Translations under genes and position numbers: made by a program | Assembly: GCA_021146305.1 (NCBI GenBank) | Contig: GCA_021146305.1_4336.1 | Source: a phage | Reading direction: 5' to 3' (one strand) | DNA: 43,091 bases | The notes under the pieces: generated by a model | Told to the model about the DNA's origin: nothing | Seen by the model: only the letters and a program-made list of their open reading frames with translations | Databases searched by the model: none | Part shown: positions 1-43,091 of the stretch, one piece after another | Layout: each line of letters starts with the position of its first letter | How positions within the stretch are numbered: the first letter of the stretch is position 1

Positions 1-1996
1 GCTGGTAGCGACGCCACGCCAGCCAGTACGCTTGCTGATAGTTACGTACACCCTTCGATTCGTACTCCTCGGTGTTCGCGCCGAGTTCTTCCGGGATATA
101 AATCGTCTCCTGTACGTTTGTATCCGGGTCAATGTACGAGAACGACAGGCTATCGTAGGTTGTCGAATCGTTGAACGTGCGCGTCCATTTCTCCGTACCG
201 GTCGTTTTGCTGCGGTGGGTGAAAACCATCTCAGGCCCCGCAACAGGACGGTCGAATCGCAGCATAATATCAGCACCTTTACGGTATGCCGTACAAAACA
301 CGGCTTCCGCGATGGTCTGAACGATGTCTTGCATGGTTGTGTCGTAGTCGTCGAATGTGTAGCAGAACTGCCCGGCTAATTCACTGTCAAAATACGACTC
401 AATTTCTTCCTGCACGGCAAGTAACTTGTCCATATTTGCCGTTGTCAGTTCCAGATTACCCACCACAGGGTCACGCGCCAGCCTGATTAGCGACTGCACG
501 GCCTGAGTGTTCGGTGTCATTACCGTATCGAATACGCCGTTACCTAAGTATTTGTAGCACATCTCGGTTGCAATCATGCGCAGTTCCGGTTCGGACACCT
601 CGGCTGCACGTGGGGTTTGTTTACGGGCGCAGTGTACGGTAGTACGGTTGCCGTAGTGGGGGGTTGTGTCCAGCGACTGCCCATACAGATTAGTGAAAGT
701 AACCTCGTCGCTAACAGTACCTTCAAAATCTTTATCGGTGTCCGAAACACGACGCATACGGGCGCGGAATCTGGAAGCAGTTGGTAAACTTCCGTAAAGA
801 GTAATCCCTGTGTAATCCGTGTTCCGGCCTGTTACGGTTCCTCGTACGGTAAATATGTCACCTACAGGCTGTTTCAATTCATCTACCATCTGGTATTGCA
901 GTTCGACTGTCACTGAAGCGCGGCTATAGTCGCCGTTGTATTTGTACATGCCGTTGCTGGCAGCCACATTGGCTACAACACGGTCGACGGTTCCGCGGGT
1001 GATGTACGCCCATTCAGAGAGGGAAGCCGCGTAAGTATCCGCCGGGCCTATAAGATGGTTGCCCTCTTCACCTATAAACCACACAGACGTCCCTAGCTGG
1101 TTCCATATTGATTGATTTGTACTGACGTCCACAATAAGGGTCGTTTCACTAACAGAAAGAACCGTGTACCTCCCGTCCAGGTTAACCTCATTACCCAAAG
1201 ACCCTGGGGTTGTATCTGCATATACGTTATCGAAGTATGCCAGGTCCCCGACCGCCAAAAACTCATCGAAACCAGCGTCATCGCCTACTACAACGCCGGT
1301 TGTTCCCTGCCGCTGGACAGTGTAGTCCTGCACGTCTATAGCGATATCATTAGGGGCGGGAAGAACAGCGCCATCGACATCGGCGTTTTTAAATGTAACG
1401 TACAACTTCTGGTCTATCGGGTCGCCAATATGCAATTGTGGGGCGTTGGTGTTATTCGGCGAAGTGTAAGGGGAATACACCGCCACCGACGAGCCAGTTA
1501 TCTCGCTGATTCGGGTATCTGCCTCAGTTACACCGTCTTCCTCAATATGCAGATACCCTCGACCGGCGTCATAGTACGCATATTCAATAAGTACCCCAGA
1601 GGCATTAAACACCTTATATGTTTGCATCAGGTCATTGGGGATGGTCTGCACTGTCCCGCAGATATCATAAGAACGCTCGTAAGGCCGTGGCTTGTTTGAG
1701 CGGTCAGTAAGACTGTTGTTAGGCGACGTAGCCTGATTGTTGGTAGCGGAATAATTAGCGTTAGCTGCTGTGTTTAGCCCGAACAATTTGGCAATTGGCT
1801 TAAGGATGAAACTGAATACACTACCGATAGCGTCGCCGATGCCGCCGCCAGCACCCTCTATAATATGATACACGGCGTCTTCGTCTTTAAGCGCTTCGAA
1901 GTCGTCTGTTACATCTGTATCATCGCCAATCTCACCGAGGTAGACGCGCACAGGCACCCCGTCAGGAATATGGTTAACGACAAAATCTATCGGCAT
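1..1996 (-). CDS. tail tip / host-specificity protein (lambda J-like position); 3' end runs off the window start
   Basis: Minus-strand frame open from ATG at 1994-1996 down to position 2 (about 665 codons) with protein-like composition; directly downstream of the NlpC/P60 tail gene; plus-strand ORF 1112-1699 is its antisense shadow. Function inferred from position and size only. Confidence 0.55.
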   Translation of the reverse strand, partial: MPIDFVVNHIPDGVPVRVYLGEIGDDTDVTDDFEALKDEDAVYHIIEGAGGGIGDAIGSVFSFILKPIAKLFGLNTAANANYSATNNQATSPNNSLTDRSNKPRPYERSYDICGTVQTIPNDLMQTYKVFNASGVLIEYAYYDAGRGYLHIEEDGVTEADTRISEITGSSVAVYSPYTSPNNTNAPQLHIGDPIDQKLYVTFKNADVDGAVLPAPNDIAIDVQDYTVQRQGTTGVVVGDDAGFDEFLAVGDLAYFDNVYADTTPGSLGNEVNLDGRYTVLSVSETTLIVDVSTNQSIWNQLGTSVWFIGEEGNHLIGPADTYAASLSEWAYITRGTVDRVVANVAASNGMYKYNGDYSRASVTVELQYQMVDELKQPVGDIFTVRGTVTGRNTDYTGITLYGSLPTASRFRARMRRVSDTDKDFEGTVSDEVTFTNLYGQSLDTTPHYGNRTTVHCARKQTPRAAEVSEPELRMIATEMCYKYLGNGVFDTVMTPNTQAVQSLIRLARDPVVGNLELTTANMDKLLAVQEEIESYFDSELAGQFCYTFDDYDTTMQDIVQTIAEAVFCTAYRKGADIMLRFDRPVAGPEMVFTHRSKTTGTEKWTRTFNDSTTYDSLSFSYIDPDTNVQETIYIPEELGANTEEYESKGVRNYQQAYWLAWRRYQ

Positions 1997-37281: not shown

Positions 37282-37473
37282 ATGAAACACGAATATGACC
37301 GTAAACCAGCACGTGACATCGTACCGGGTGACATGATTTTCAACGTTAAGACCCGCCAGCCTGTTGCCGTTGATACTGTGTTCGTCGAGTCAAACGGTAA
37401 ACTGGTTATCGAAGATGTAACTGGTAACGTTACGGCGTTCGGGCGTAAAGAGCTGGTGCTGGTGGCAAAATGA
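37282..37473 (+). CDS. hypothetical protein
   Basis: 63 aa; AGGAA RBS. Confidence 0.45.
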   Translation: MKHEYDRKPARDIVPGDMIFNVKTRQPVAVDTVFVESNGKLVIEDVTGNVTAFGRKELVLVAK

Positions 37474-38153
37474 TTGTCTGGTCATTGTTTGACGGTTCGG
37501 GCCTTATGGCCCAACCGTGGGCAGAAGCGGGCCATACTTGCTATTGTTTCAACTACGACGGTGCCGACCACGGCGACTACGCGCGATTGGGCGCAAAAGT
37601 TGAACACGAGAACATCCACTATATAAACGCGTGGATTGATAATAAGTTCGACTTCGAGGTTTCGCCAGATATTATTTTTGCGTTCCCTCCTTGCACAGAT
37701 TTAGCCGTTAGTGGTGCGGCGCATTTCGAAACGAAGCGTAAGAAGAACCCAACGTTTCAGGTAGAGGCTGTTATCACATGCAAAGTGGCGGCACGCCTGG
37801 CTAAAAGGTATAACGTACCTTATATGATTGAGAACCCAGTTAGCGTCCTCTCGTCTTTGTGGCGTAAGCCCGATTATGTGTTCAATCCTTACGAATACGG
37901 CGGCTATCTACCGGAAGACGATACGCATCCAATGTTCCCTGAATACATAAAACCCCGAGACGCGTACCCTAAAAAGACATGTCTTTGGACGGGTAATGGT
38001 TTCGTAATGCCGGTTAAGTCAGGTGTTGCCGTGGGTGATGGGTATTCTGACCGGCACAACAAACTTGGTGGTAAATCAGTGCGGACAAAAACAATCCGCA
38101 GCCTTACTCCTCGGGGTTTCGCAAAAGCAGTTTACGAGGCTAATCATGTCTAA
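37470..38153 (+). CDS. compact DNA (cytosine-5)-methyltransferase-like protein
   Basis: 227 aa; motif I LFDGSG, motif IV FAFPPC (candidate catalytic Cys), motif VI ENP; shorter than typical C5-MTases with no obvious target-recognition domain. Confidence 0.5.
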   Translation: MIVWSLFDGSGLMAQPWAEAGHTCYCFNYDGADHGDYARLGAKVEHENIHYINAWIDNKFDFEVSPDIIFAFPPCTDLAVSGAAHFETKRKKNPTFQVEAVITCKVAARLAKRYNVPYMIENPVSVLSSLWRKPDYVFNPYEYGGYLPEDDTHPMFPEYIKPRDAYPKKTCLWTGNGFVMPVKSGVAVGDGYSDRHNKLGGKSVRTKTIRSLTPRGFAKAVYEANHV

Positions 38154-39570
38154 GTTTCAAAGGCGCGAATATCAGAAGCTCATGACTTCGTTCATGCTAC
38201 AGCATCCGCGCTGTAATATCTGGTGCGGCATGGGAGGGGGCAAAACCTCCTCAACTATGTGGGTGCTTAATCGCCTGTTTCGCAACGGGCAGCTTACAGA
38301 AGATGACCGCGTGTTAATCCTCGCCCCGTTACGTGTTGCGTCCGGTACGTGGCCCGCTGAACAAGAGAAATGGCAATTCCCTTGTCTGCGTGTCGTAGAT
38401 GCAACTGGTTCGGAGAAGCGCCGCATCGCAGCGCTGGAGTCAGATGCTAACGTGGTGTGCACTAACTACGAAGTTATCGAGTGGCTAATTGACTACTACG
38501 GCAAAGACGACTGGCCTTTTACGGTTATCGTTGCCGATGAAAGCACGAAGCTTAAATCGTTCCGCAGCCGTTCGGGTGGTAGCAAGCGGGCAAAGGCGCT
38601 CAGCAAGGTTGCGTTCGGAAAGGTTAAGCGTTTCATCAACCTGACAGGCACACCGTCACCAAACGGCCTCAAAGACTTGTGGGGTCAGAACTGGTTTATC
38701 GACGCTGGCGAGCGCCTCGGCTCTTCGTACACAGCATTCACCGACCGCTGGTTTAACTCGGTACAGAAAGGTAAATCGGCCATGGCCCGCGAGTATCATG
38801 CACGACCGGGTGCGGATAATGAGATTCATCAGAAGATGAAAGACATCAGCCTGACCATAGACCCTGCCGAGTGGTTTGGTTGTGAAGCGCCTGTTATCGT
38901 ACCGGTGGAAATAGACCTGCCGAAGAAAGCGCGTCAGGCGTACATAGATATGGAGGAGAAGTTATTCGCAGAACTGGAGAGCGGGGAAGTTGAAGCGGCT
39001 AACGCTGCGGCGAAGACCTCAAAGTGCTTGCAGATTGCATCTGGTGCTGTATATGTATCCGGGCCAGACGGCGAAGCAACCAAAGAATGGGAGAAAGTGC
39101 ACGACACGAAACTGGATGCGCTCGAGTCGATTGTTGAGGAGTTGCAGGGTGCGCCGTTGCTGGTAGCCTATCAGTTTAAACACGAACTGGAGCGTATCCT
39201 TAAGCGATTCCCACAGGCACAGGCGTTCGCCAAAGGCGCTAGGGGGAACAAGCAGATGGAAGCGTGGAACCGTGGGGAAATCGAGATTTTATGCGTGCAT
39301 CCTGCGTCAGCCGGGCATGGTTTGAATTTACAGGACGGGGGTCATCATCTGGCGTTCGTCTCGCAAGGCTGGAACCTTGAGCACTATTTGCAGGTTGTTG
39401 AGCGCATAGGCCCAGTCCGCCAGAAACAGGCGGGTCACGAGCGCCCGGTGTTCCTTTATCACATCGTTGCTAAAGACACTCTGGACGAGGTTGTCGCCGC
39501 GCGTACCGACGAGAAGAAATCGGTACAGGAAGAGTTGCTTAATTACATGAAGAGACGAGGTAAGAAATGA
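38146..39570 (+). CDS. SNF2-family (DEAD-like) helicase
   Basis: 474 aa from ATG 38146 (GAGG RBS); Walker A GMGGGKT, DEST box, LTGTP motif; the track ORF starts upstream at 38023 in the same frame. Confidence 0.75.
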   Translation: MSKFQRREYQKLMTSFMLQHPRCNIWCGMGGGKTSSTMWVLNRLFRNGQLTEDDRVLILAPLRVASGTWPAEQEKWQFPCLRVVDATGSEKRRIAALESDANVVCTNYEVIEWLIDYYGKDDWPFTVIVADESTKLKSFRSRSGGSKRAKALSKVAFGKVKRFINLTGTPSPNGLKDLWGQNWFIDAGERLGSSYTAFTDRWFNSVQKGKSAMAREYHARPGADNEIHQKMKDISLTIDPAEWFGCEAPVIVPVEIDLPKKARQAYIDMEEKLFAELESGEVEAANAAAKTSKCLQIASGAVYVSGPDGEATKEWEKVHDTKLDALESIVEELQGAPLLVAYQFKHELERILKRFPQAQAFAKGARGNKQMEAWNRGEIEILCVHPASAGHGLNLQDGGHHLAFVSQGWNLEHYLQVVERIGPVRQKQAGHERPVFLYHIVAKDTLDEVVAARTDEKKSVQEELLNYMKRRGKK

Positions 39571-40082
39571 TGGATTTCGAAGAGTTTCTACTTAAAGCTC
39601 ATCTGCTGGCGCGTGGGTTTGACGCTGACCGTCTCCAGGTAGTCTTAGCCCCTGGAGTAGCTACGTTTTACCTGTGGGGGTTTGACGGTAGGCTTCGCGG
39701 ATACCAGCATTACAAACCACATGCCGAAAAGAACTGTAAAAACCCTAAAGACGCGCGGTACTTTACCAGAACAACAAGGCCGTGTTTATGGGGGCTTGAG
39801 TATTTGCCGGAAAGCGGGGTGGTATTTGTTACCGAAAGCATATTCAAAGCCGTAGCCTTGATGAATTGCGGGTTCAATGCTGTAAGCGCACTGGGGTCAA
39901 ATATATCAACAGACCTACGGCAGCAAATGTCACTTTTGCCGTATGACTGGGTGTGCGCTGGCGACAATGATAAAGCTGGATTAAAGTTCAGCAAAACATT
40001 CACCAGAGGATTTGTATCTAACGACCTTGATGAACTTTGTGAAGAAGAAATAACGTATCTTGCGAGGAAATTTACCAGATGA
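39567..40082 (+). CDS. TOPRIM-domain (DnaG-like) primase protein
   Basis: 171 aa; acidic TOPRIM-like motifs VFVTES and CAGDNDKAG. Confidence 0.5.
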   Translation: MMDFEEFLLKAHLLARGFDADRLQVVLAPGVATFYLWGFDGRLRGYQHYKPHAEKNCKNPKDARYFTRTTRPCLWGLEYLPESGVVFVTESIFKAVALMNCGFNAVSALGSNISTDLRQQMSLLPYDWVCAGDNDKAGLKFSKTFTRGFVSNDLDELCEEEITYLARKFTR

Positions 40083-40216
40083 ACATCATAGCCCCAATTC
40101 CGGCATTGCAAAAACGTATCAAGGAACTCGAAGAAGAGGTTCTGCGGCTACGTCAGCAAAGAGACGCCGCTAATGCGCAACTGGCGTTTGTACTGGAGAA
40201 GTTATCAGAAGAGTAG
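40079..40216 (+). CDS. small coiled-coil protein
   Basis: 45 aa (MNIIAPIPALQKRIKELEEEVLRLRQQRDAANAQLAFVLEKLSEE); ATGA coupling. Confidence 0.35.
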   Translation: MNIIAPIPALQKRIKELEEEVLRLRQQRDAANAQLAFVLEKLSEE

Positions 40217-40247
40217 AGAAAAGGCCCCGTTTGGGGCCTTAGTTTAT
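40217..40247. terminator. bidirectional intrinsic terminator
   Basis: AAGGCCCC-gttt-GGGGCCTT (40221-40240) then T-rich tract; separates the rightward replication operon from the convergent tailspike gene. Confidence 0.85.
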
Positions 40248-42584
40248 TTAACTGTTTGTCAGGGTAGCCACTAATGTCTCAAGCGCTATAATCCTTTTCT
40301 CTAACTGAGCTGCTTTACGTCGCTGTAACGCAGCCTCTAATATCAATACCTCATCATAACGAATACCATACCGCTCCCCTGCCGCCGTAGCTTTTGTTAA
40401 TACTTCCCCAGATTCCTCATCAATAATTTCCGGAGACGCTTCCCACTTATCGTAGCACAGGAAACCGTACTTAGTCGCGTCCAACCCGTGCCGGGTAAAC
40501 GCCTCAATTGCTCGTTGGGCTACTACTCCAAAGTGCCACCTAGCTGCATCCTCCCCCTTCTCTGCAACCCTATCCAGGTACTTATATTGAACTAAATTAA
40601 CTTCAGCCCAAGCGTCTAACATAGCGTCAGTTAATTCCAGGGGTAGTGTCTTGGCTCTCTCGTCAGACGTAACCGTAAACGCTGTTTGAGTGAATCCGCC
40701 GGACAAAGCTCTACTTGCCGACCCGATAGCGACGGTGTTTGCACTGGATGGTGTAATAGCCGTCGGGGCTATTTGAATATACGCCGATGCGTCAGAGGCT
40801 AAGCGTAAATAACCATTAACCAGAGAAATAGTTCGAGAAGTACCATCAGATGTGAGTAATTTTATCTGAGAGGTCGTACCTCCACCAATAGCCAAAGATG
40901 TAGCCCCGTCGGAAATTAGTCTGAATTTATCAGCTGTCACAAAAGGCAATGCAGAAGTATTTATATACTTAGTGAACCACTCAAACCTACCGGACATGGA
41001 CCCTATGTATTGTCCTATAGCGGGGGCGTGTACCACGTTACTGGTGGTAGTACCATCAATGCTAGAGACTCCGGTTATAGTAGATCGTGAACTAAGAAGA
41101 CTGTTCTTGGGTCCAGGGTGCTTTACTTCCACAAAGTTACGGGTAGTCCCTGTCTCTAGTGTAACAACCCCGGAAGCACTATACATAGGGAAAACCGATG
41201 CGTAGTTATTACTAGCTCCGTCTAAAAACCTAATAGAAGTCGCGGTTTGCGTTTGCCCTAAACTATTAGTTCCGCTGCACCCAACCATTAGAATATTATC
41301 AGCGGCATTATAGTTGCCTTGTAATGTAACGCCGTGTGCTTGCGTGGCCTCGGAGGAGGAGTAATCAGCTACAACATTTGTCACCAGATTACCTGAACCC
41401 TCGCCGGCGACCACAGCGGCATACTTAGCGTTATTAGCAACAACATTACTGATAATATTACTGCTAGGGGCATTGGTCGTCTCGGTGCCATTATAAACAA
41501 CGTGCTGACAGCTTTGCCCAATGACGCCACTAACAACATTACATTTAGCATCTGTTTTCAACTCAACCGCCCCGAATTGGGGGTAGTTTCGGGCGATAAC
41601 ATCGTTGATTATAGTATTACTTGCGGACTCAAACAGCACGCACCCCGCTTTTTTATTTGTAGCATACCCGGAGTAGTCACCCCGTATGCCGCTTACAATG
41701 TATCCAGACGGACCCCCATCGCTAGGGTATGCTACTAAACTAAATCCAGTTCCCTTTGCATTTTTAAAATCAATACCTTTAATAGTAACGTCCTGCCCAC
41801 CGGCGAAGGAAACCTGCTGACCCTGTGTGAAGTCCGTTGCCTTATTTCCTACAATACTCAGGGTGCTAAGTAGCCCTCCTGCAGGTTTATCAAAGATTAA
41901 GTGGTTTCCAGAATCGTTTGATTGTTTTAAAACCCCACCCCCTGTTCCGAATAGAGAGCATGTCGGGTGGGAGAGTAGCGACGTACTATACTCCCCTTGC
42001 GGTACAAGCACCCCGTTACTAGCTGTAAGCGCTCGGTTAAGGGCGTTTGTGTAATCAGGGTCAGTACCTAAATAGAAGTCCAGAACGGAAACTACTTCTC
42101 TATTTTTATCGTGTTGCGTCCTGCCGACAGCGTCGGTAAATGGTTGTCGGACGCCGACCATGGCATCACCTAATGTCGCATTGTCTGTGCTGGATAAATC
42201 ATTGCGCAAATCCGGGTCAGTCTGCGGCTTCCAGTTAGCGTCACCAACCGGGTTAAACGATGCGGGGACAACAACCGGCAGAGTCCCGGTATACGAGTAC
42301 CACGTCTTGCTTACAGGGTCATACACCACTTTGTCGCGGTCATTAGCGGTTAACGTACCACCAGTGGAAAAGTCCCATGACACCGGAGAAAAACCAGCGT
42401 CACGCAACACGGCTGGTAACGTCTTTTGGGTCTGCCCTGTAACGGCATTTGTCGCGTAATCAATATCGGCGCCACCTGCAATACCTCCAGATTTGCCAGT
42501 GATAACCTCGGCTTCGAAAATCTGGTGTTTCTTGGCGGTTTGTAAATCCGCCAGGCTTAAAACGTCACCGCATCCGCTTGACAT
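40248..42584 (-). CDS. tailspike / depolymerase-type receptor-binding protein with C-terminal intramolecular chaperone
   Basis: 778 aa; strong AGAGGA RBS; Gly/Asn/Thr/Ser-rich central region; C-terminal ~139 aa begins TSDERAK (S codon 40665-40667), the signature of the peptidase S74 auto-cleaving chaperone domain. Confidence 0.75.
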   Translation of the reverse strand: MSSGCGDVLSLADLQTAKKHQIFEAEVITGKSGGIAGGADIDYATNAVTGQTQKTLPAVLRDAGFSPVSWDFSTGGTLTANDRDKVVYDPVSKTWYSYTGTLPVVVPASFNPVGDANWKPQTDPDLRNDLSSTDNATLGDAMVGVRQPFTDAVGRTQHDKNREVVSVLDFYLGTDPDYTNALNRALTASNGVLVPQGEYSTSLLSHPTCSLFGTGGGVLKQSNDSGNHLIFDKPAGGLLSTLSIVGNKATDFTQGQQVSFAGGQDVTIKGIDFKNAKGTGFSLVAYPSDGGPSGYIVSGIRGDYSGYATNKKAGCVLFESASNTIINDVIARNYPQFGAVELKTDAKCNVVSGVIGQSCQHVVYNGTETTNAPSSNIISNVVANNAKYAAVVAGEGSGNLVTNVVADYSSSEATQAHGVTLQGNYNAADNILMVGCSGTNSLGQTQTATSIRFLDGASNNYASVFPMYSASGVVTLETGTTRNFVEVKHPGPKNSLLSSRSTITGVSSIDGTTTSNVVHAPAIGQYIGSMSGRFEWFTKYINTSALPFVTADKFRLISDGATSLAIGGGTTSQIKLLTSDGTSRTISLVNGYLRLASDASAYIQIAPTAITPSSANTVAIGSASRALSGGFTQTAFTVTSDERAKTLPLELTDAMLDAWAEVNLVQYKYLDRVAEKGEDAARWHFGVVAQRAIEAFTRHGLDATKYGFLCYDKWEASPEIIDEESGEVLTKATAAGERYGIRYDEVLILEAALQRRKAAQLEKRIIALETLVATLTNS

Positions 42585-42596
42585 ATAGAGTCCTCT

Positions 42597-43022
42597 TTAA
42601 TTAAAACCATTGCTGAATCCGTCGGAGAAACCGCTGCCGTATGGCGCGACGCCGTCGTATTTATAGAATCCGTCGTCATAGTTGTAGCCAGTAATCTTGA
42701 CCGTGCGGTCGTCGCCGGGGTCGATTGAAGAAACAACTATCTTCTGAGCATTATGCCTTGCTTCGTTGCCGAATGAAAACTCAGTTTTTAGTGCGCTATT
42801 CCCCGTGTAGATTGCTTCCTCCGGCGCGGAGAGCATAATCACCTCGCGGTCGTGGCTTCCTTTAATAACGGAGATACTCTGTACAGAGCCATCGCGCTTC
42901 TTAAGAATGATGGAATGGTCATCACCAGGAGTAAACGTAACAGGCTGAGACAGCGTCAGCGTAAGGCCATTGACGGCAACAACATAACCATCCTGCGGCG
43001 CGATACGCGAGCCTTTAACCAC
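42597..43022 (-). CDS. hypothetical tail-associated protein; start uncertain
   Basis: 141-aa track ORF beginning at GTG; the frame is open to the window end (43091) and continues in the same frame at the window start if the ends are joined; lies between the J-like gene and the tailspike. Confidence 0.4.
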   Translation of the reverse strand: MVKGSRIAPQDGYVVAVNGLTLTLSQPVTFTPGDDHSIILKKRDGSVQSISVIKGSHDREVIMLSAPEEAIYTGNSALKTEFSFGNEARHNAQKIVVSSIDPGDDRTVKITGYNYDDGFYKYDGVAPYGSGFSDGFSNGFN

Positions 43023-43091
43023 ACTGATTACGCCGCCGGGAGTAGCGAGAGCGCCTTCTTCGGTAGCTTCGAACTCTACGACAACTTTACT

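What the first reader, a model, noticed from the sequence alone, without database searches (positions are those of the whole stretch)
40248..42584. Tailspike with C-terminal auto-cleaving intramolecular chaperone (TSDERAK): depolymerase-type receptor-binding protein
The last ~139 residues begin with the S-D-x-R-x-K signature of peptidase S74 intramolecular chaperone domains, known from endosialidases and L-shaped tail fibres, which fold the upstream beta-helix and then cleave themselves off. The central region is Gly/Asn/Thr/Ser-rich as in polysaccharide-degrading beta-helix spikes. This predicts a capsule- or O-antigen-specific depolymerase; the substrate cannot be read from the sequence.
Basis: partly seen in the sequence, partly recalled or inferred. 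Interest (0 to 1): 0.45.

Follow-up and report, generated by a model that had tools for sequence, protein, structure and literature searches.

The report
K5-capsule lyase tailspike of a Kagunavirus
This gene encodes an ordinary phage tailspike of a known kind: a relative of the K5 (heparosan) capsule lyases with a self-cleaving C-terminal folding chaperone, so its sugar target can be predicted after all.

Summary
A 778-aa ORF lies at 40248-42584, on the minus strand. Its last 139 residues begin with S640-D-E-R-A-K645 and match Pfam Peptidase_S74 (E=1e-13). They also match the solved chaperone domains of phi29 gp12 and K1F endosialidase.

Residues 176-639 align without a gap to the solved K5 lyase KflA (PDB 2x3h, E=1.9e-177, 59-60% identity). 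That alignment ends exactly at Ser640. The residues I recall as KflA's catalytic site (F202, E206, K208, H226, Y229) are all conserved.

The window is a nearly complete Kagunavirus genome. The spike is 96-98.5% identical to spikes annotated only as 'tailspike' in 11 GenBank records (8 distinct phages). One of these, PDP21_P8 (97.9% identical), has published host-range data: it lyses 9 of about 401 Escherichia strains. All 9 are among the 19 typed K5, and they carry several different O-antigens (Fisher p=1.4e-13).

Best reading: a trimeric heparosan (K5) lyase tailspike on a siphovirus anchor module, matured by autocleavage at Ser640. It is a new member of a known kind and of low interest. Enzyme activity and cleavage are inferred, not shown.

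The parts
40248..42584 (-). Complete tailspike gene: 778 codons plus a TAA stop at 40248-40250. Predicted precursor mass is 81.9 kDa.
   Evidence: ORF list. PHROG tail-spike families, phrog_14895 at E=1.4e-231. 96-98.5% aa identity to annotated tailspikes in 11 GenBank records, 8 distinct Kagunavirus phages. Mass.
42591..42597 (-). Ribosome-binding site AAGAGGA, 6 nt before the ATG. It overlaps the stop codon of the upstream tail-tip gene, so the spike is translated as the last gene of the tail operon.
   Evidence: Read directly from the sequence. No above-background promoter in the region.
42195..42584 (-). N-terminal virion-anchor module, aa 1-130, shared among Kagunavirus and related Guernseyvirinae spikes whatever their enzymatic body.
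   Evidence: Only nucleotides 1 to about 390 of the gene match other Kagunavirus spikes, at 85-91% nt identity. Many database spikes are 80-93% identical over the first 17-26% of the query only and carry other bodies such as PF12708. PHROG N-terminal tail-spike families cover residues 1-114. The Pfam Tail_spike_N hit at 77-112 is below cut-off (22 vs 25 bits).
42060..42194 (-). Neck/linker and cap of the beta-helix, aa 131-175. This is the recombination junction between the anchor and the body.
   Evidence: Residues 132-187 match the segment just after the head-binding domain of the Sf6 and P22-type tailspikes (7sg7, 4urr, 2vbe; E about 4e-9 to 7e-9). The model shows short helices at lower pLDDT, 60-68.
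41085..42059 (-). Right-handed parallel beta-helix, the predicted heparosan (K5) lyase domain, aa 176-500.
   Evidence: Gapless alignment to KflA 2x3h, 58.8% identity to K1-5 gp46 and 63% to the ElmA-like prophage spikes. The AlphaFold2 model shows a regular strand ladder with pLDDT mostly 85-98. Foldseek top hit is 2x3h_A, E=5.2e-43.
41481..41585 (-). Putative catalytic segment, aa 334-368 (YPQFGAVELK ... CQHVVYNGTE), with F337, E341, K343, H361 and Y364.
   Evidence: These align with KflA/K1-5 gp46 F202, E206, K208, H226 and Y229. F, E, K and Y are invariant in all 16 aligned family members. Q-H and Y-N are shared only by the three K5-lyase clades. That these residues are the catalytic site is my recollection of Thompson et al. 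2010, which could not be read here. The letters at those numbered positions fit.
40668..41084 (-). C-terminal trimerisation stalk, aa 501-639. In KflA this region consists of strands intertwined between subunits.
   Evidence: 61% identical to K1-5 gp46 with no gaps. The monomer model is poor here (pLDDT 31-78), as expected for a domain that exists only in the trimer. The intertwined structure is from my knowledge of 2x3h, and PMC8822698 mentions it.
40251..40667 (-). C-terminal intramolecular chaperone domain (Peptidase S74), aa 640-778, 15.7 kDa. Predicted to be cleaved off, leaving a 66.3-kDa mature spike.
   Evidence: Pfam PF13884 at E=1e-13. 3gud E=3.9e-25, 3gw6 E=6e-22, 4uw8 E=1.9e-8. Foldseek to 3gud: TM 0.88, rmsd 1.8 A, 46% identity. 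Masses.
40650..40667 (-). Cleavage motif S640-D-E-R-A-K645. Ser640 is the predicted nucleophile and Lys645 the general base. The scissile bond is expected immediately N-terminal to Ser640.
   Evidence: Motif position. The deposited mature KflA chain (2x3h) ends at the homologous Ser, and the 3gud chaperone chain begins with it. The Ser/Lys dyad and the bond position come from my knowledge of endoNF (Ser911/Lys916) and T5 pb1.
40221..40240 (.). G+C-rich hairpin between the spike gene and the convergent 45-aa ORF (40079-40216, + strand). Probably a terminator for both directions.
   Evidence: Terminator scan: 8-bp stem with 6 G-C pairs, followed by a T-rich tail. Sequence read. The number of terminator-like sites in the region is not above shuffled expectation, so its position is the only argument.
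42597..43091 (-). 3' end of the upstream tail-tip (J-like) gene, cut by the window end. The spike gene follows it directly, as in related phages.
   Evidence: 99% identical to residues 664-827 of fEg-Eco19 gp51, which precedes that phage's tailspike gp52.

Best explanation
The gene encodes the single tailspike (receptor-binding depolymerase) of a Kagunavirus, a virulent siphovirus of E. coli. The protein has three modules. Residues 1-130 are the genus-wide anchor that fixes the spike to the tail tip. Residues 176-639 are a K5-lyase body: a right-handed parallel beta-helix followed by an intertwined trimeric stalk. Residues 640-778 are a Peptidase-S74 intramolecular chaperone. My proposed mechanism follows; each step is inferred. 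Three precursor chains (82 kDa) associate through the chaperone domains, which template folding of the trimeric stalk. The Ser640/Lys645 dyad then cuts the chain just before Ser640, releasing a 15.7-kDa fragment and leaving a stable 66-kDa-per-chain trimer. [quoted passage not shown] This uses the conserved Glu341/Lys343/Tyr364 (and His361) site. The phage thereby tunnels through the capsule to the cell surface. Shown here: the domain architecture, the homologies, conservation of the motifs, and a K5-restricted host range for a phage with a 97.9% identical spike. Inferred: autocleavage, lyase chemistry and trimer state.
For: ORF and motif. S74 domain: Pfam E=1e-13; 3gud, 3gw6 and 4uw8 by sequence; 3gud by fold, TM 0.88 and rmsd 1.8 A. 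K5-lyase body: 2x3h at E=1.9e-177 aligned to q176-640, ending exactly at the cleavage Ser; 9vvr at E=1.7e-229. The body is 59-60% identical to the KflA clade and 62-63% to the ElmA-like prophage spikes over 464 ungapped columns. Those two clades are themselves only 60-61% identical to each other. Foldseek top hit is 2x3h at E=5e-43. The catalytic segment is conserved, and the Q-H/Y-N signature is shared only by the three K5-lyase clades. The query clade has no excess of private substitutions: 32, against 30 for the ElmA-like clade and 46 for the KflA clade. Genome background is Kagunavirus. Host range: PDP21_P8 (OZ035783.1, 43594 bp) has a spike with 16 differences in 778 residues, none at the catalytic or cleavage residues. 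It was isolated on PDP21, a strain typed K5. It gives lysis on exactly 9 strains of the matrix. All 9 are among the 19 strains typed K5, Fisher p=1.4e-13. These 9 span phylogroups A, D and B2 and several O-types (O10, O2, O25, O75, O18, O17, and the ambiguous call O77/O17/O44/O106). Four ST69 strains with the same O-type call as PDP21 but capsule K96 are not lysed. The same host yielded podoviruses that carry KflA-clade spikes or belong to species whose reference genomes do. vKMB36, whose spike is 98% identical, makes plaques with halos (PMC11162368).
Against: No enzymology or processing data exist for this protein or its near-identical relatives. It is about 40% divergent from both characterised K5 lyases. 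The list of KflA catalytic residues is from my memory, because the paper was not available. I did not verify that the 820-aa prophage clade is ElmA; only its length and family fit. PDP21_P8 lyses only 9 of 19 K5 strains. On all but its own host the score is 1-2, meaning lysis only at high phage dose, which could be clearing without productive infection. vKMB36 infected only 2 of 77 UPEC strains, whereas K5-lyase vectreviruses in the same study infected 17-22%. The strains in the matrix are not phylogenetically independent, so the Fisher p-value is optimistic. Capsule types there are genomic predictions, not serology.
Confidence: 0.85

Rival explanations
1. The fold and chemistry are the same but the substrate differs. 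The spike would be a lyase for another acidic polysaccharide that co-occurs with, or is mistaken for, K5 in genomic typing. K5 lyase would then be only its nearest relative.
For: About 40% sequence divergence from KflA and the ElmA-like clade. Only 9 of 19 K5 strains are lysed, mostly at score 1-2. vKMB36 has a much narrower range than the KflA-type vectreviruses in the same panel. More distant family members (P0043-P0046) keep the FGAVELK...Y core but change neighbouring residues, so the scaffold can probably be retargeted.
Against: All 9 lysed strains are K5 and 0 of about 382 non-K5 strains are lysed. The Q-H/Y-N signature around the catalytic Tyr is identical to that of both characterised-type clades. 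Divergence is no greater than between KflA and the ElmA-like clade. Incomplete lysis of K5 strains is equally seen for the KflA-clade phages from the same host: PDP21_P1 does not lyse AN17, T147, ECOR-49, ECOR-51, NILS18 or NILS27. Post-adsorption barriers therefore suffice as an explanation.
Confidence: 0.07
2. The spike binds K5 capsule but is catalytically inactive or very slow. It would act as an adhesin only, as has been proposed for heparan-sulfate binding by the K5-lyase-like fibre of phage ES17.
For: Published work on ES17 argues that a K5-lyase-like domain mediates glycan binding (PMC7885116). The halos of vKMB36 are described as turbid. Scores on most K5 strains are low.
Against: Every residue I recall as catalytic in KflA is conserved, and the segment around them is nearly invariant. 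Halos, even turbid ones, indicate diffusible depolymerase activity. No insertion or deletion occurs anywhere in 464 aligned residues.
Confidence: 0.05
3. The C-terminal S74 domain is retained in the mature spike, for example as a distal binding domain, rather than being cleaved off.
For: Nothing specific in the data. It is listed because cleavage was not observed here, and homology alone does not prove processing.
Against: The Ser and Lys of the dyad and the intervening D-x-R are intact. The domain matches the whole Pfam profile. The deposited mature KflA chain stops at the homologous Ser. In every characterised member known to me (endoNF, phi29 gp12, T5 pb1, KflA) the domain is released.
Confidence: 0.04
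4. The spike is O-antigen-specific. This is one half of the first reader's alternative.
For: Many Kagunavirus and Jerseyvirus spikes on the same anchor module target O-antigens (title and abstract of PMC10408124, listed).
Against: The 9 strains lysed by PDP21_P8 carry several different O-types. Four strains with the same ST69 background and O77/O17/O44/O106 call as the isolation host, but capsule K96, are not lysed. The body is homologous to capsule lyases, not to O-antigen endoglycosidases.
Confidence: 0.01

Closest known systems
KflA, the K5 lyase tailspike of coliphage K5A (PDB 2x3h), and its near-identical copy gp46 of phage K1-5
   Same: The catalytic beta-helix and trimeric stalk are collinear and gapless (464 aa, 59-60% identity, E=1.9e-177). 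The F/E/K/H/Y catalytic segment is the same. The S-D-x-R-x-K chaperone junction is at the same place, and the chaperone domain is 57% identical. The K5 capsule is the inferred target.
   Different: KflA and gp46 (632 aa) have only a short N-terminal peptide that docks on an adaptor protein of an SP6-like podovirus. This protein has a 130-aa siphovirus (Kagunavirus) anchor plus a neck. About 40% of body residues differ. Activity is proven for KflA and only inferred here.
820-aa E. coli prophage tail protein (P0003/P0004), probably ElmA, the chromosomal heparosan lyase of E. coli K5
   Same: This is the closest body, at 62-63% identity and gapless, sharing for example ARNYPQFGAVELKT and CQHVVYNGTE. 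It has an S74 chaperone at the C-terminus.
   Different: The N-terminus is different (18-20% identity). The gene sits in a temperate prophage next to holin and lysis genes and occurs in 68 of 5426 complete E. coli genomes. The chaperone domain is only 46-47% identical. I did not verify that this cluster is ElmA; its length and family agree with my memory of Legoux et al. 1996.
843-aa Kayfunavirus tail spike (PDB 9vvr; P0006/P0007) and the N4-like 'K5 lyase' spikes (UE-S5b and others, P0017)
   Same: These are KflA-clade bodies mounted on other phage chassis. They show that the same lyase-plus-chaperone cassette moves between morphotypes. The whole region q91-765 aligns to 9vvr at E=1.7e-229.
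   Different: Their bodies are 90-98% identical to KflA, whereas this one forms a separate, third clade. Their N-terminal modules are T7-like or N4-like.
C-terminal intramolecular chaperone domains of K1F endosialidase (3gw6), phi29 gp12 (3gud) and T5 pb1 (4uw8); MEROPS/Pfam Peptidase S74
   Same: The domain, the Ser...Lys motif at its start, its C-terminal position after a trimeric beta-structure, and the fold (3gud: TM 0.88, rmsd 1.8 A, 46% identity) all agree.
   Different: The passenger domains are unrelated: a sialidase beta-propeller, a phi29 appendage and a T5 fibre.
Tailspikes of Kagunavirus phages fEg-Eco19, EF2-1, vKMB36, PDP21_P8, fFiEco02, fPoEco01, VIPECOMC04 and VIPECOTPH05A
   Same: These are orthologues: 96-98.5% aa identity over all 778 residues, at the same genomic position after the tail-tip gene.
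   Different: They differ only by point substitutions. They are annotated just as 'tailspike'. The vKMB36 paper states that the depolymerase showed no similarity to known depolymerases, which the present comparison contradicts.

Membership tests
Peptidase S74 / C-terminal intramolecular chaperone domain (CIMCD) | Match to the family profile above the curated threshold | tested here: met
   PF13884, residues 640-701, profile positions 1-58 of 58, 51.8 bits against a cut-off of 22, E=1e-13.
Peptidase S74 / C-terminal intramolecular chaperone domain (CIMCD) | Conserved Ser and Lys, five residues apart, at the start of the domain (S-D-x-R-x-K) | tested here: met
   S640-D-E-R-A-K645. It aligns with SDERHK at residue 1 of 3gud and with SDARCK of K1-5 gp46. 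It is unchanged in the PDP21_P8 orthologue.
Peptidase S74 / C-terminal intramolecular chaperone domain (CIMCD) | Fold of the solved chaperone domains | tested here: met
   Foldseek of the AlphaFold2 model against 3gud_B gives TM(target) 0.88, rmsd 1.8 A over 121 columns. Hits to 3gw6 are at about E=1e-9 to 1e-8. Model pLDDT in this domain is 73-91.
Peptidase S74 / C-terminal intramolecular chaperone domain (CIMCD) | Located at the extreme C-terminus directly after a trimeric beta-structured stalk | tested here: met
   The domain spans residues 640-778 of 778. The preceding 139 residues are homologous to the KflA stalk, and the 2x3h chain ends at the homologous Ser.
Peptidase S74 / C-terminal intramolecular chaperone domain (CIMCD) | Autoproteolytic release after trimer assembly | not testable with these tools
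   This needs protein expression, followed by SDS-PAGE or MS of wild type against S640A and K645A.
K5 (heparosan) lyase tailspikes (KflA / ElmA type) | Full-length homology of the catalytic beta-helix and stalk to KflA | tested here: met
   phmmer against 2x3h_A gives E=1.9e-177, with q176-640 aligned to chain 78-542. Identity is 59.5% to K1-5 gp46 over 464 ungapped columns.
K5 (heparosan) lyase tailspikes (KflA / ElmA type) | Right-handed single-stranded parallel beta-helix fold | tested here: met
   The AlphaFold2 model shows a regular strand ladder at 190-490 with pLDDT 85-98. The top Foldseek hit is 2x3h_A (E=5.2e-43), followed by other tailspike beta-helices.
K5 (heparosan) lyase tailspikes (KflA / ElmA type) | Conservation of the proposed catalytic residues (KflA Glu206, Lys208, Tyr229, with Phe202 and His226 nearby) | tested here: met
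   The query has F337, E341, K343, H361 and Y364 at the aligned columns. Caveat: the residue list is recalled from Thompson et al. 2010, which could not be opened. The letters at those numbered positions in K1-5 gp46 agree with the recollection.
K5 (heparosan) lyase tailspikes (KflA / ElmA type) | Phage host range restricted to K5-encapsulated strains | tested here: met
   This was tested for the 97.9%-identical orthologue in phage PDP21_P8, not for this phage itself. All 9 lysed strains are typed K5, 0 of about 382 non-K5 strains are lysed, and Fisher p=1.4e-13. K5 typing is genomic. Lysis on non-host strains is mostly at the highest dose.
K5 (heparosan) lyase tailspikes (KflA / ElmA type) | [quoted passage not shown] | not testable with these tools
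   This needs purified protein and heparosan, with A232, PAGE or MS of the products.
Kagunavirus (Guernseyvirinae) tailspike | Conserved N-terminal anchor module and gene position directly after the tail-tip (J-like) gene | tested here: met
   The first roughly 390 nt are 85-91% identical to other Kagunavirus spikes that have unrelated bodies. The upstream gene is 99% identical to the C-terminus of fEg-Eco19 gp51, which precedes that phage's spike. The rest of the window matches Kagunavirus genomes at 86-95% nt identity.
   The only similarity to K1F endosialidase is residues 609-769, the stalk end plus chaperone of 3gw6. No sialidase domain appears in the Pfam, PDB or Foldseek results.

The most novel reading that the evidence does not exclude
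The Kagunavirus clade would be a functionally distinct third lineage of heparosan lyases. It might have a different cleavage pattern, processivity or tolerance of modified chains than KflA and ElmA. It might also bind or cleave the unsulfated domains of host heparan sulfate, giving a siphovirus the mucus or epithelium adherence proposed for the podovirus ES17. Nothing in the data excludes this. The 32 clade-specific substitutions and the weak, partial lysis of K5 strains leave room for it.
Probability: 0.1. Interest if true: 0.4.

Novelty: new member of a known kind. Interest (0 to 1): 0.15.

Why it matters
The practical value is modest. The result names the receptor (the K5 heparosan capsule) for a group of at least eight sequenced Kagunavirus phages. 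Several of them were isolated as therapy candidates, their spikes are annotated only as 'tailspike', and for one of them a publication reported no similarity to known depolymerases. K5 is a common capsule of extraintestinal pathogenic E. coli: in the Picard collection table, K5-typed strains include ST73, ST14, ST69 and ST131. Knowing the receptor helps with phage-cocktail design and host-range prediction. The enzyme would also be a third, about 60%-identical sequence variant of heparosan lyase. Such variants are of some interest for producing defined heparosan oligosaccharides. The case also illustrates one lyase-plus-chaperone cassette moving between siphovirus, T7-like, SP6-like and N4-like phages and prophages. 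None of this is conceptually new.

Tried and rejected
1. I tried to read the primary KflA structure paper (PMC2911314 and its DOI), the substrate-specificity paper (PMC3505012), Clarke 2000 (PMC94548) and Legoux 1996 (PMC178642). None is held. The catalytic residues and the identity of ElmA therefore rest on my memory. I checked the memory only against the letters found at those positions. Reviews that cite KflA do not list the residues.

2. The fEg-Eco19 paper says nothing about the spike beyond 'tail spike protein'.

3. A full-text search for 'PDP21' found only unrelated papers. The information was in the supplementary tables of the Gaborieau preprint.

4. Pfam has no model for the catalytic body. 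Only the S74 domain passes, and Tail_spike_N is below its cut-off. I therefore did not file the N-terminus under that family.

5. I searched the ElmA-like gene against complete E. coli genomes, hoping to tie it to K5 strains. It is in 68 genomes, including ST131, but capsule types are not given, so this was not informative.

6. I tested whether the window closes into a circle through the tail-tip gene. The direct join is out of frame. Comparison with fEg-Eco19 gp51 shows about 4 codons missing.

7. The O-antigen hypothesis and the endosialidase hypothesis were considered and rejected (see rivals and membership test).

8. The short ORFs on the opposite (+) strand inside the gene (at most 99 aa) were not pursued. 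The minus-strand protein is conserved end to end across hundreds of homologues.
Full report
**1. The observation**

The coordinates 40248-42584 delimit one ATG-to-TAA open reading frame of 778 codons. A Shine-Dalgarno sequence (AAGAGGA) lies 6 nt upstream of the ATG and overlaps the stop codon of the preceding gene. A G+C-rich hairpin (40221-40240) separates the stop codon from a convergent 45-codon ORF.

The motif S-D-E-R-A-K is at residues 640-645, so 'the last ~139 residues' is exact. The bare motif is weak evidence on its own. From amino-acid frequencies it is expected about once in the six-frame translation of the window and 0.009 times in this protein, and it occurs once, here. The domain behind it is not in doubt. 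Pfam Peptidase_S74 matches residues 640-701 over the entire profile at E=1e-13, 51.8 bits against a cut-off of 22. The solved chaperone domains also match: phi29 gp12 (3gud, E=3.9e-25), K1F endosialidase (3gw6, E=6e-22) and T5 pb1 (4uw8, E=1.9e-8).

The compositional remark is also correct. Gly+Asn+Thr+Ser is 40-42% in residues 176-639. It is 24.8% +/- 6.0% in 30 long ORFs of the window and 15.8% in the chaperone domain.

**2. What the body of the protein is**

A sequence search of solved structures says otherwise. Residues 176-640 align to the K5 lyase KflA of coliphage K5A (PDB 2x3h) at E=1.9e-177. The deposited mature chain ends exactly at the residue homologous to Ser640. Residues 91-765 align to an 843-aa tail spike (PDB 9vvr) at E=1.7e-229.

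An AlphaFold2 model built on 47 homologues has mean pLDDT 78. It shows a regular beta-strand ladder from about residue 190 to 490 with pLDDT 85-98. Confidence is poor in residues 500-640, as expected when a domain that exists only as an intertwined trimer is modelled as a monomer. Foldseek against the PDB returns 2x3h first (E=5.2e-43, 55% identity). The chaperone domains follow, with 3gud at TM 0.88 and rmsd 1.8 A, and then generic tailspike beta-helices.

PHROG families for tail spikes cover the protein, the best at E=1.4e-231. Pfam has no model for the body, which is why a profile scan alone would leave it uncharacterised.

**3. Family structure**

A search of 5.8 billion proteins found the family on many chassis:
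- 632-aa spikes of SP6-like podoviruses (the KflA / K1-5 gp46 type);
- 843-aa spikes of Kayfunavirus, the same kind as 9vvr;
- 784-aa spikes named 'K5 lyase' in 72-76 kb phages;
- 820-aa tail proteins of E. coli prophages;
- the query's own cluster, 97-98% identical, on contigs of about 43-44 kb.

I aligned the region 176-639, which gives 464 columns with no gap in any of the twelve closest sequences. The alignment shows three roughly equidistant clades:
- the KflA clade, 89-98% identical within itself;
- the 820-aa prophage clade;
- the query clade.

The query is 59-60% identical to the first clade and 62-63% to the second. Those two clades are 60-61% identical to each other. Private substitutions number 32 for the query clade, 30 for the prophage clade and 46 for the KflA clade. 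The query lineage therefore shows no accelerated change, and most of its private changes are conservative.

The prophage protein sits next to holin and lysis genes and occurs in 68 of 5426 complete E. coli genomes. From memory it has the length of ElmA, the chromosomal heparosan lyase. Published work uses ElmA as a heparosan-specific lyase (PMC12834895). I could not verify that the cluster is ElmA. If it is, two enzymes that are only about 60% identical already share K5 specificity. That would make the same specificity plausible for a third clade at the same distance.

**4. Active site**

I recall from Thompson et al. 2010 that the proposed KflA catalytic site involves Glu206, Lys208 and Tyr229, with Phe202 nearby. 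The paper could not be opened, so this is a recollection. The letters at those numbered positions in K1-5 gp46 are indeed F, E, K and Y.

In the alignment these columns are invariant in all 16 sequences examined. In the query they are F337, E341, K343 and Y364, within YPQFGAVELK and CQHVVYNGTE. The neighbouring Gln-His (H361) and the Asn after the Tyr are shared by the three K5-lyase clades. They are replaced in four more distant relatives that are only 39-48% identical. The query therefore carries the signature of the K5-lyase clades specifically, not just the generic scaffold.

**5. Genome context**

The rest of the window matches Kagunavirus genomes (Guernseyvirinae, virulent E. coli siphoviruses) at 86-95% nucleotide identity. 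The spike gene is 97-99% identical at the DNA level, and 96-98.5% at the protein level, to 11 GenBank records. These represent 8 distinct phages: fEg-Eco19, EF2-1, vKMB36, PDP21P8, fFiEco02, fPoEco01, VIPECOMC04 and VIPECOTPH05A. All are annotated simply as tailspike.

Only the first roughly 390 nt (aa 1-130) are shared with other Kagunavirus spikes that carry unrelated bodies. This is the usual modular arrangement: a genus-specific anchor, a junction or neck, then an exchangeable enzymatic body. Residues 132-187 resemble the segment just after the head-binding domain of the Sf6 and P22-type spikes. The upstream gene is the tail-tip (J-like) protein, as in fEg-Eco19 where gp51 precedes the spike gp52. 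Downstream, on the other strand, lie a Toprim-like ORF and an SNF2-type helicase.

**6. Experimental evidence on specificity from the literature**

The preprint of Gaborieau et al. (bioRxiv 10.1101/2023.11.22.567924) tested 96 phages on 403 Escherichia strains. Its Supplementary Table 2 lists PDP21_P8 as a Kagunavirus of 43594 bp isolated on strain PDP21. This is GenBank OZ035783.1, which has the same length. Its spike differs from the query at 16 of 778 positions, none at the catalytic or cleavage residues.

In the interaction matrix PDP21_P8 scores above zero on exactly nine strains:
- ECOR-11, ECOR-49, ECOR-50, ECOR-51 and ECOR-64;
- IAI81;
- NILS18 and NILS27;
- PDP21.

Supplementary Table 1 types 19 strains as K5 in its ABC-capsule column, and all nine lysed strains are among them. 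With about 401 strains scored, the one-sided Fisher probability is 1.4e-13.

The nine strains belong to phylogroups A, D and B2. Their O-types are O10, O2, O25, O75, O18, O17 and the ambiguous call O77/O17/O44/O106. Four ST69 strains with the same O-type call as PDP21, but capsule K96, are not lysed. The determinant is therefore the capsule, not the O-antigen.

The same isolation host yielded a Kayfunavirus with a KflA-clade spike and three vectreviruses of species VEc3. The VEc3 reference genome carries a K5-lyase-type spike at 56% identity to the query. Independently, vKMB36 (spike 98% identical) forms plaques with halos. Its authors reported no similarity to known depolymerases (PMC11162368), a statement the present comparison contradicts.

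Four caveats apply:
- Capsule types are genomic predictions.
- The strains are not phylogenetically independent.
- PDP21_P8 lyses only 9 of 19 K5 strains.
- Except on its own host (score 4), the scores are 1-2, meaning lysis only at high phage dose. That may be clearing without productive infection.

The KflA-clade phages from the same host also miss many K5 strains. K5 is therefore necessary but not sufficient for all of them.

**7. Mechanism**

The best-supported account is as follows. The 82-kDa precursor trimerises through its C-terminal S74 domains, which template folding of the intertwined stalk. The Ser640/Lys645 dyad then cleaves the chain immediately before Ser640. This releases a 15.7-kDa fragment and leaves a 66.3-kDa mature chain (masses). 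The mature trimer is held on the tail tip by residues 1-130. The beta-helix groove binds heparosan and cleaves the GlcNAc-alpha-1,4-GlcA linkage by beta-elimination, using the Glu341/Lys343/Tyr364 site. This lets the phage strip the capsule and reach the surface.

The architecture, homologies, motif conservation and K5-restricted host range of an orthologue are shown. The cleavage, the trimer and the chemistry are inferred from characterised relatives. Part of that inference rests on my own knowledge of endoNF, phi29 gp12, T5 pb1 and KflA.

**8. Rivals**

- A retargeted lyase for another acidic polymer (0.07) is disfavoured by the 9-of-9 K5 result and the shared active-site signature.
- A binding-only spike (0.05) is disfavoured by the intact catalytic residues and the halos.
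- Retention of the chaperone domain (0.04) is disfavoured by the intact dyad and by the mature KflA chain ending at the homologous Ser.
- O-antigen specificity (0.01) is effectively refuted by the host-range data.

**9. Novelty and verdict**

This is a known kind of object. K5 lyase tailspikes were cloned in 2000 and solved in 2010, and S74 chaperones have been well described since 2003-2010. Near-identical genes are already in GenBank.

What I did not find stated anywhere in the accessible literature is twofold: that this Kagunavirus spike group is a K5 lyase homologue, and that it forms a third clade beside the KflA and ElmA-like clades. That is a useful annotation, not a discovery. I rate it as a new member of a known kind, interest 0.15. 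Its interpretation is right at its core but wrong in claiming that the substrate is unreadable.

Noticed in passing
window 1-1996 (-) and 42597-43091 (-): Both ends of the window fall inside the same tail-tip (J-like) gene. The start of the window encodes residues 1-659 of the fEg-Eco19 gp51 homologue (76% identity) and the end encodes residues 664-827 (99%). The direct join is out of frame and about 4 codons are missing. The window therefore looks like a nearly complete, circularly permuted Kagunavirus genome contig with a small gap at the junction.
   Followed up: yes
window 1-1996 (-), roughly codons 180-350 of the tail-tip protein: The tail-tip protein is mosaic relative to fEg-Eco19 gp51. 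It is nearly identical after about residue 440, but only loosely similar with several indels between about residues 200 and 330. This suggests a second exchangeable host-interaction segment next to the spike.
   Followed up: no
window 39567-40082 (+): The 171-aa ORF two genes downstream of the spike, on the opposite strand, has a weak Toprim_2 match (E=9.6e-5, just above cut-off). At the corresponding position fEg-Eco19 is annotated with a 486-bp 'HNH homing endonuclease'. I did not check whether these are the same gene annotated differently or a real replacement.
   Followed up: no
window 37470-38153 (+) and 38023-39570 (+): The mechanically listed GTG start of the SNF2-type helicase ORF overlaps the preceding 227-aa ORF by 131 nt. 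The real helicase start is probably further downstream.
   Followed up: no
literature: PMC11162368 (vKMB36, GenBank OR525703): The authors state that the vKMB36 depolymerase has no similarity to known depolymerases. Its spike is 98% identical to this one, which matches K5 lyase KflA at E=1.9e-177. [quoted passage not shown] I did not check whether this window has it.
   Followed up: partly
proteins P0043-P0046 (database homologues, no window coordinates): Four more distant relatives (39-48% identity in the body) keep the FGAVELK...Y core and the S74 chaperone. They replace the Gln-His and Asn that flank the catalytic Tyr in all K5-lyase clades. P0043 also has a Kagunavirus-like N-terminus (43% identity over 83 aa). 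They may be lyases for other capsule types built on the same scaffold.
   Followed up: no
Suppl. Tables 1 and 3 of bioRxiv 10.1101/2023.11.22.567924: Ten of the 19 K5-typed strains resist PDP21_P8. Among these ten, the two ST73 O6:H1 K5 strains (AN17, T147) resist every phage isolated on PDP21, although AN17 is lysed by AN17_P1, which carries a KflA-clade spike. K5 capsule is necessary but not sufficient, so other barriers (defence systems, secondary receptor) must act.
   Followed up: partly
L003 4001-6463 (E. coli prophage, GCA_053185005.1): The 820-aa ElmA-like lyase spike is encoded immediately upstream of a holin/endolysin/spanin cassette in a prophage. An identical copy is present in 68 of 5426 complete E. 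coli genomes, including an O25b:H4-ST131 strain. A capsule-degrading spike is therefore carried by temperate phages of lineages in which K5-typed strains occur (ST131 strains NILS19, NILS25 and NILS27 are typed K5).
   Followed up: partly
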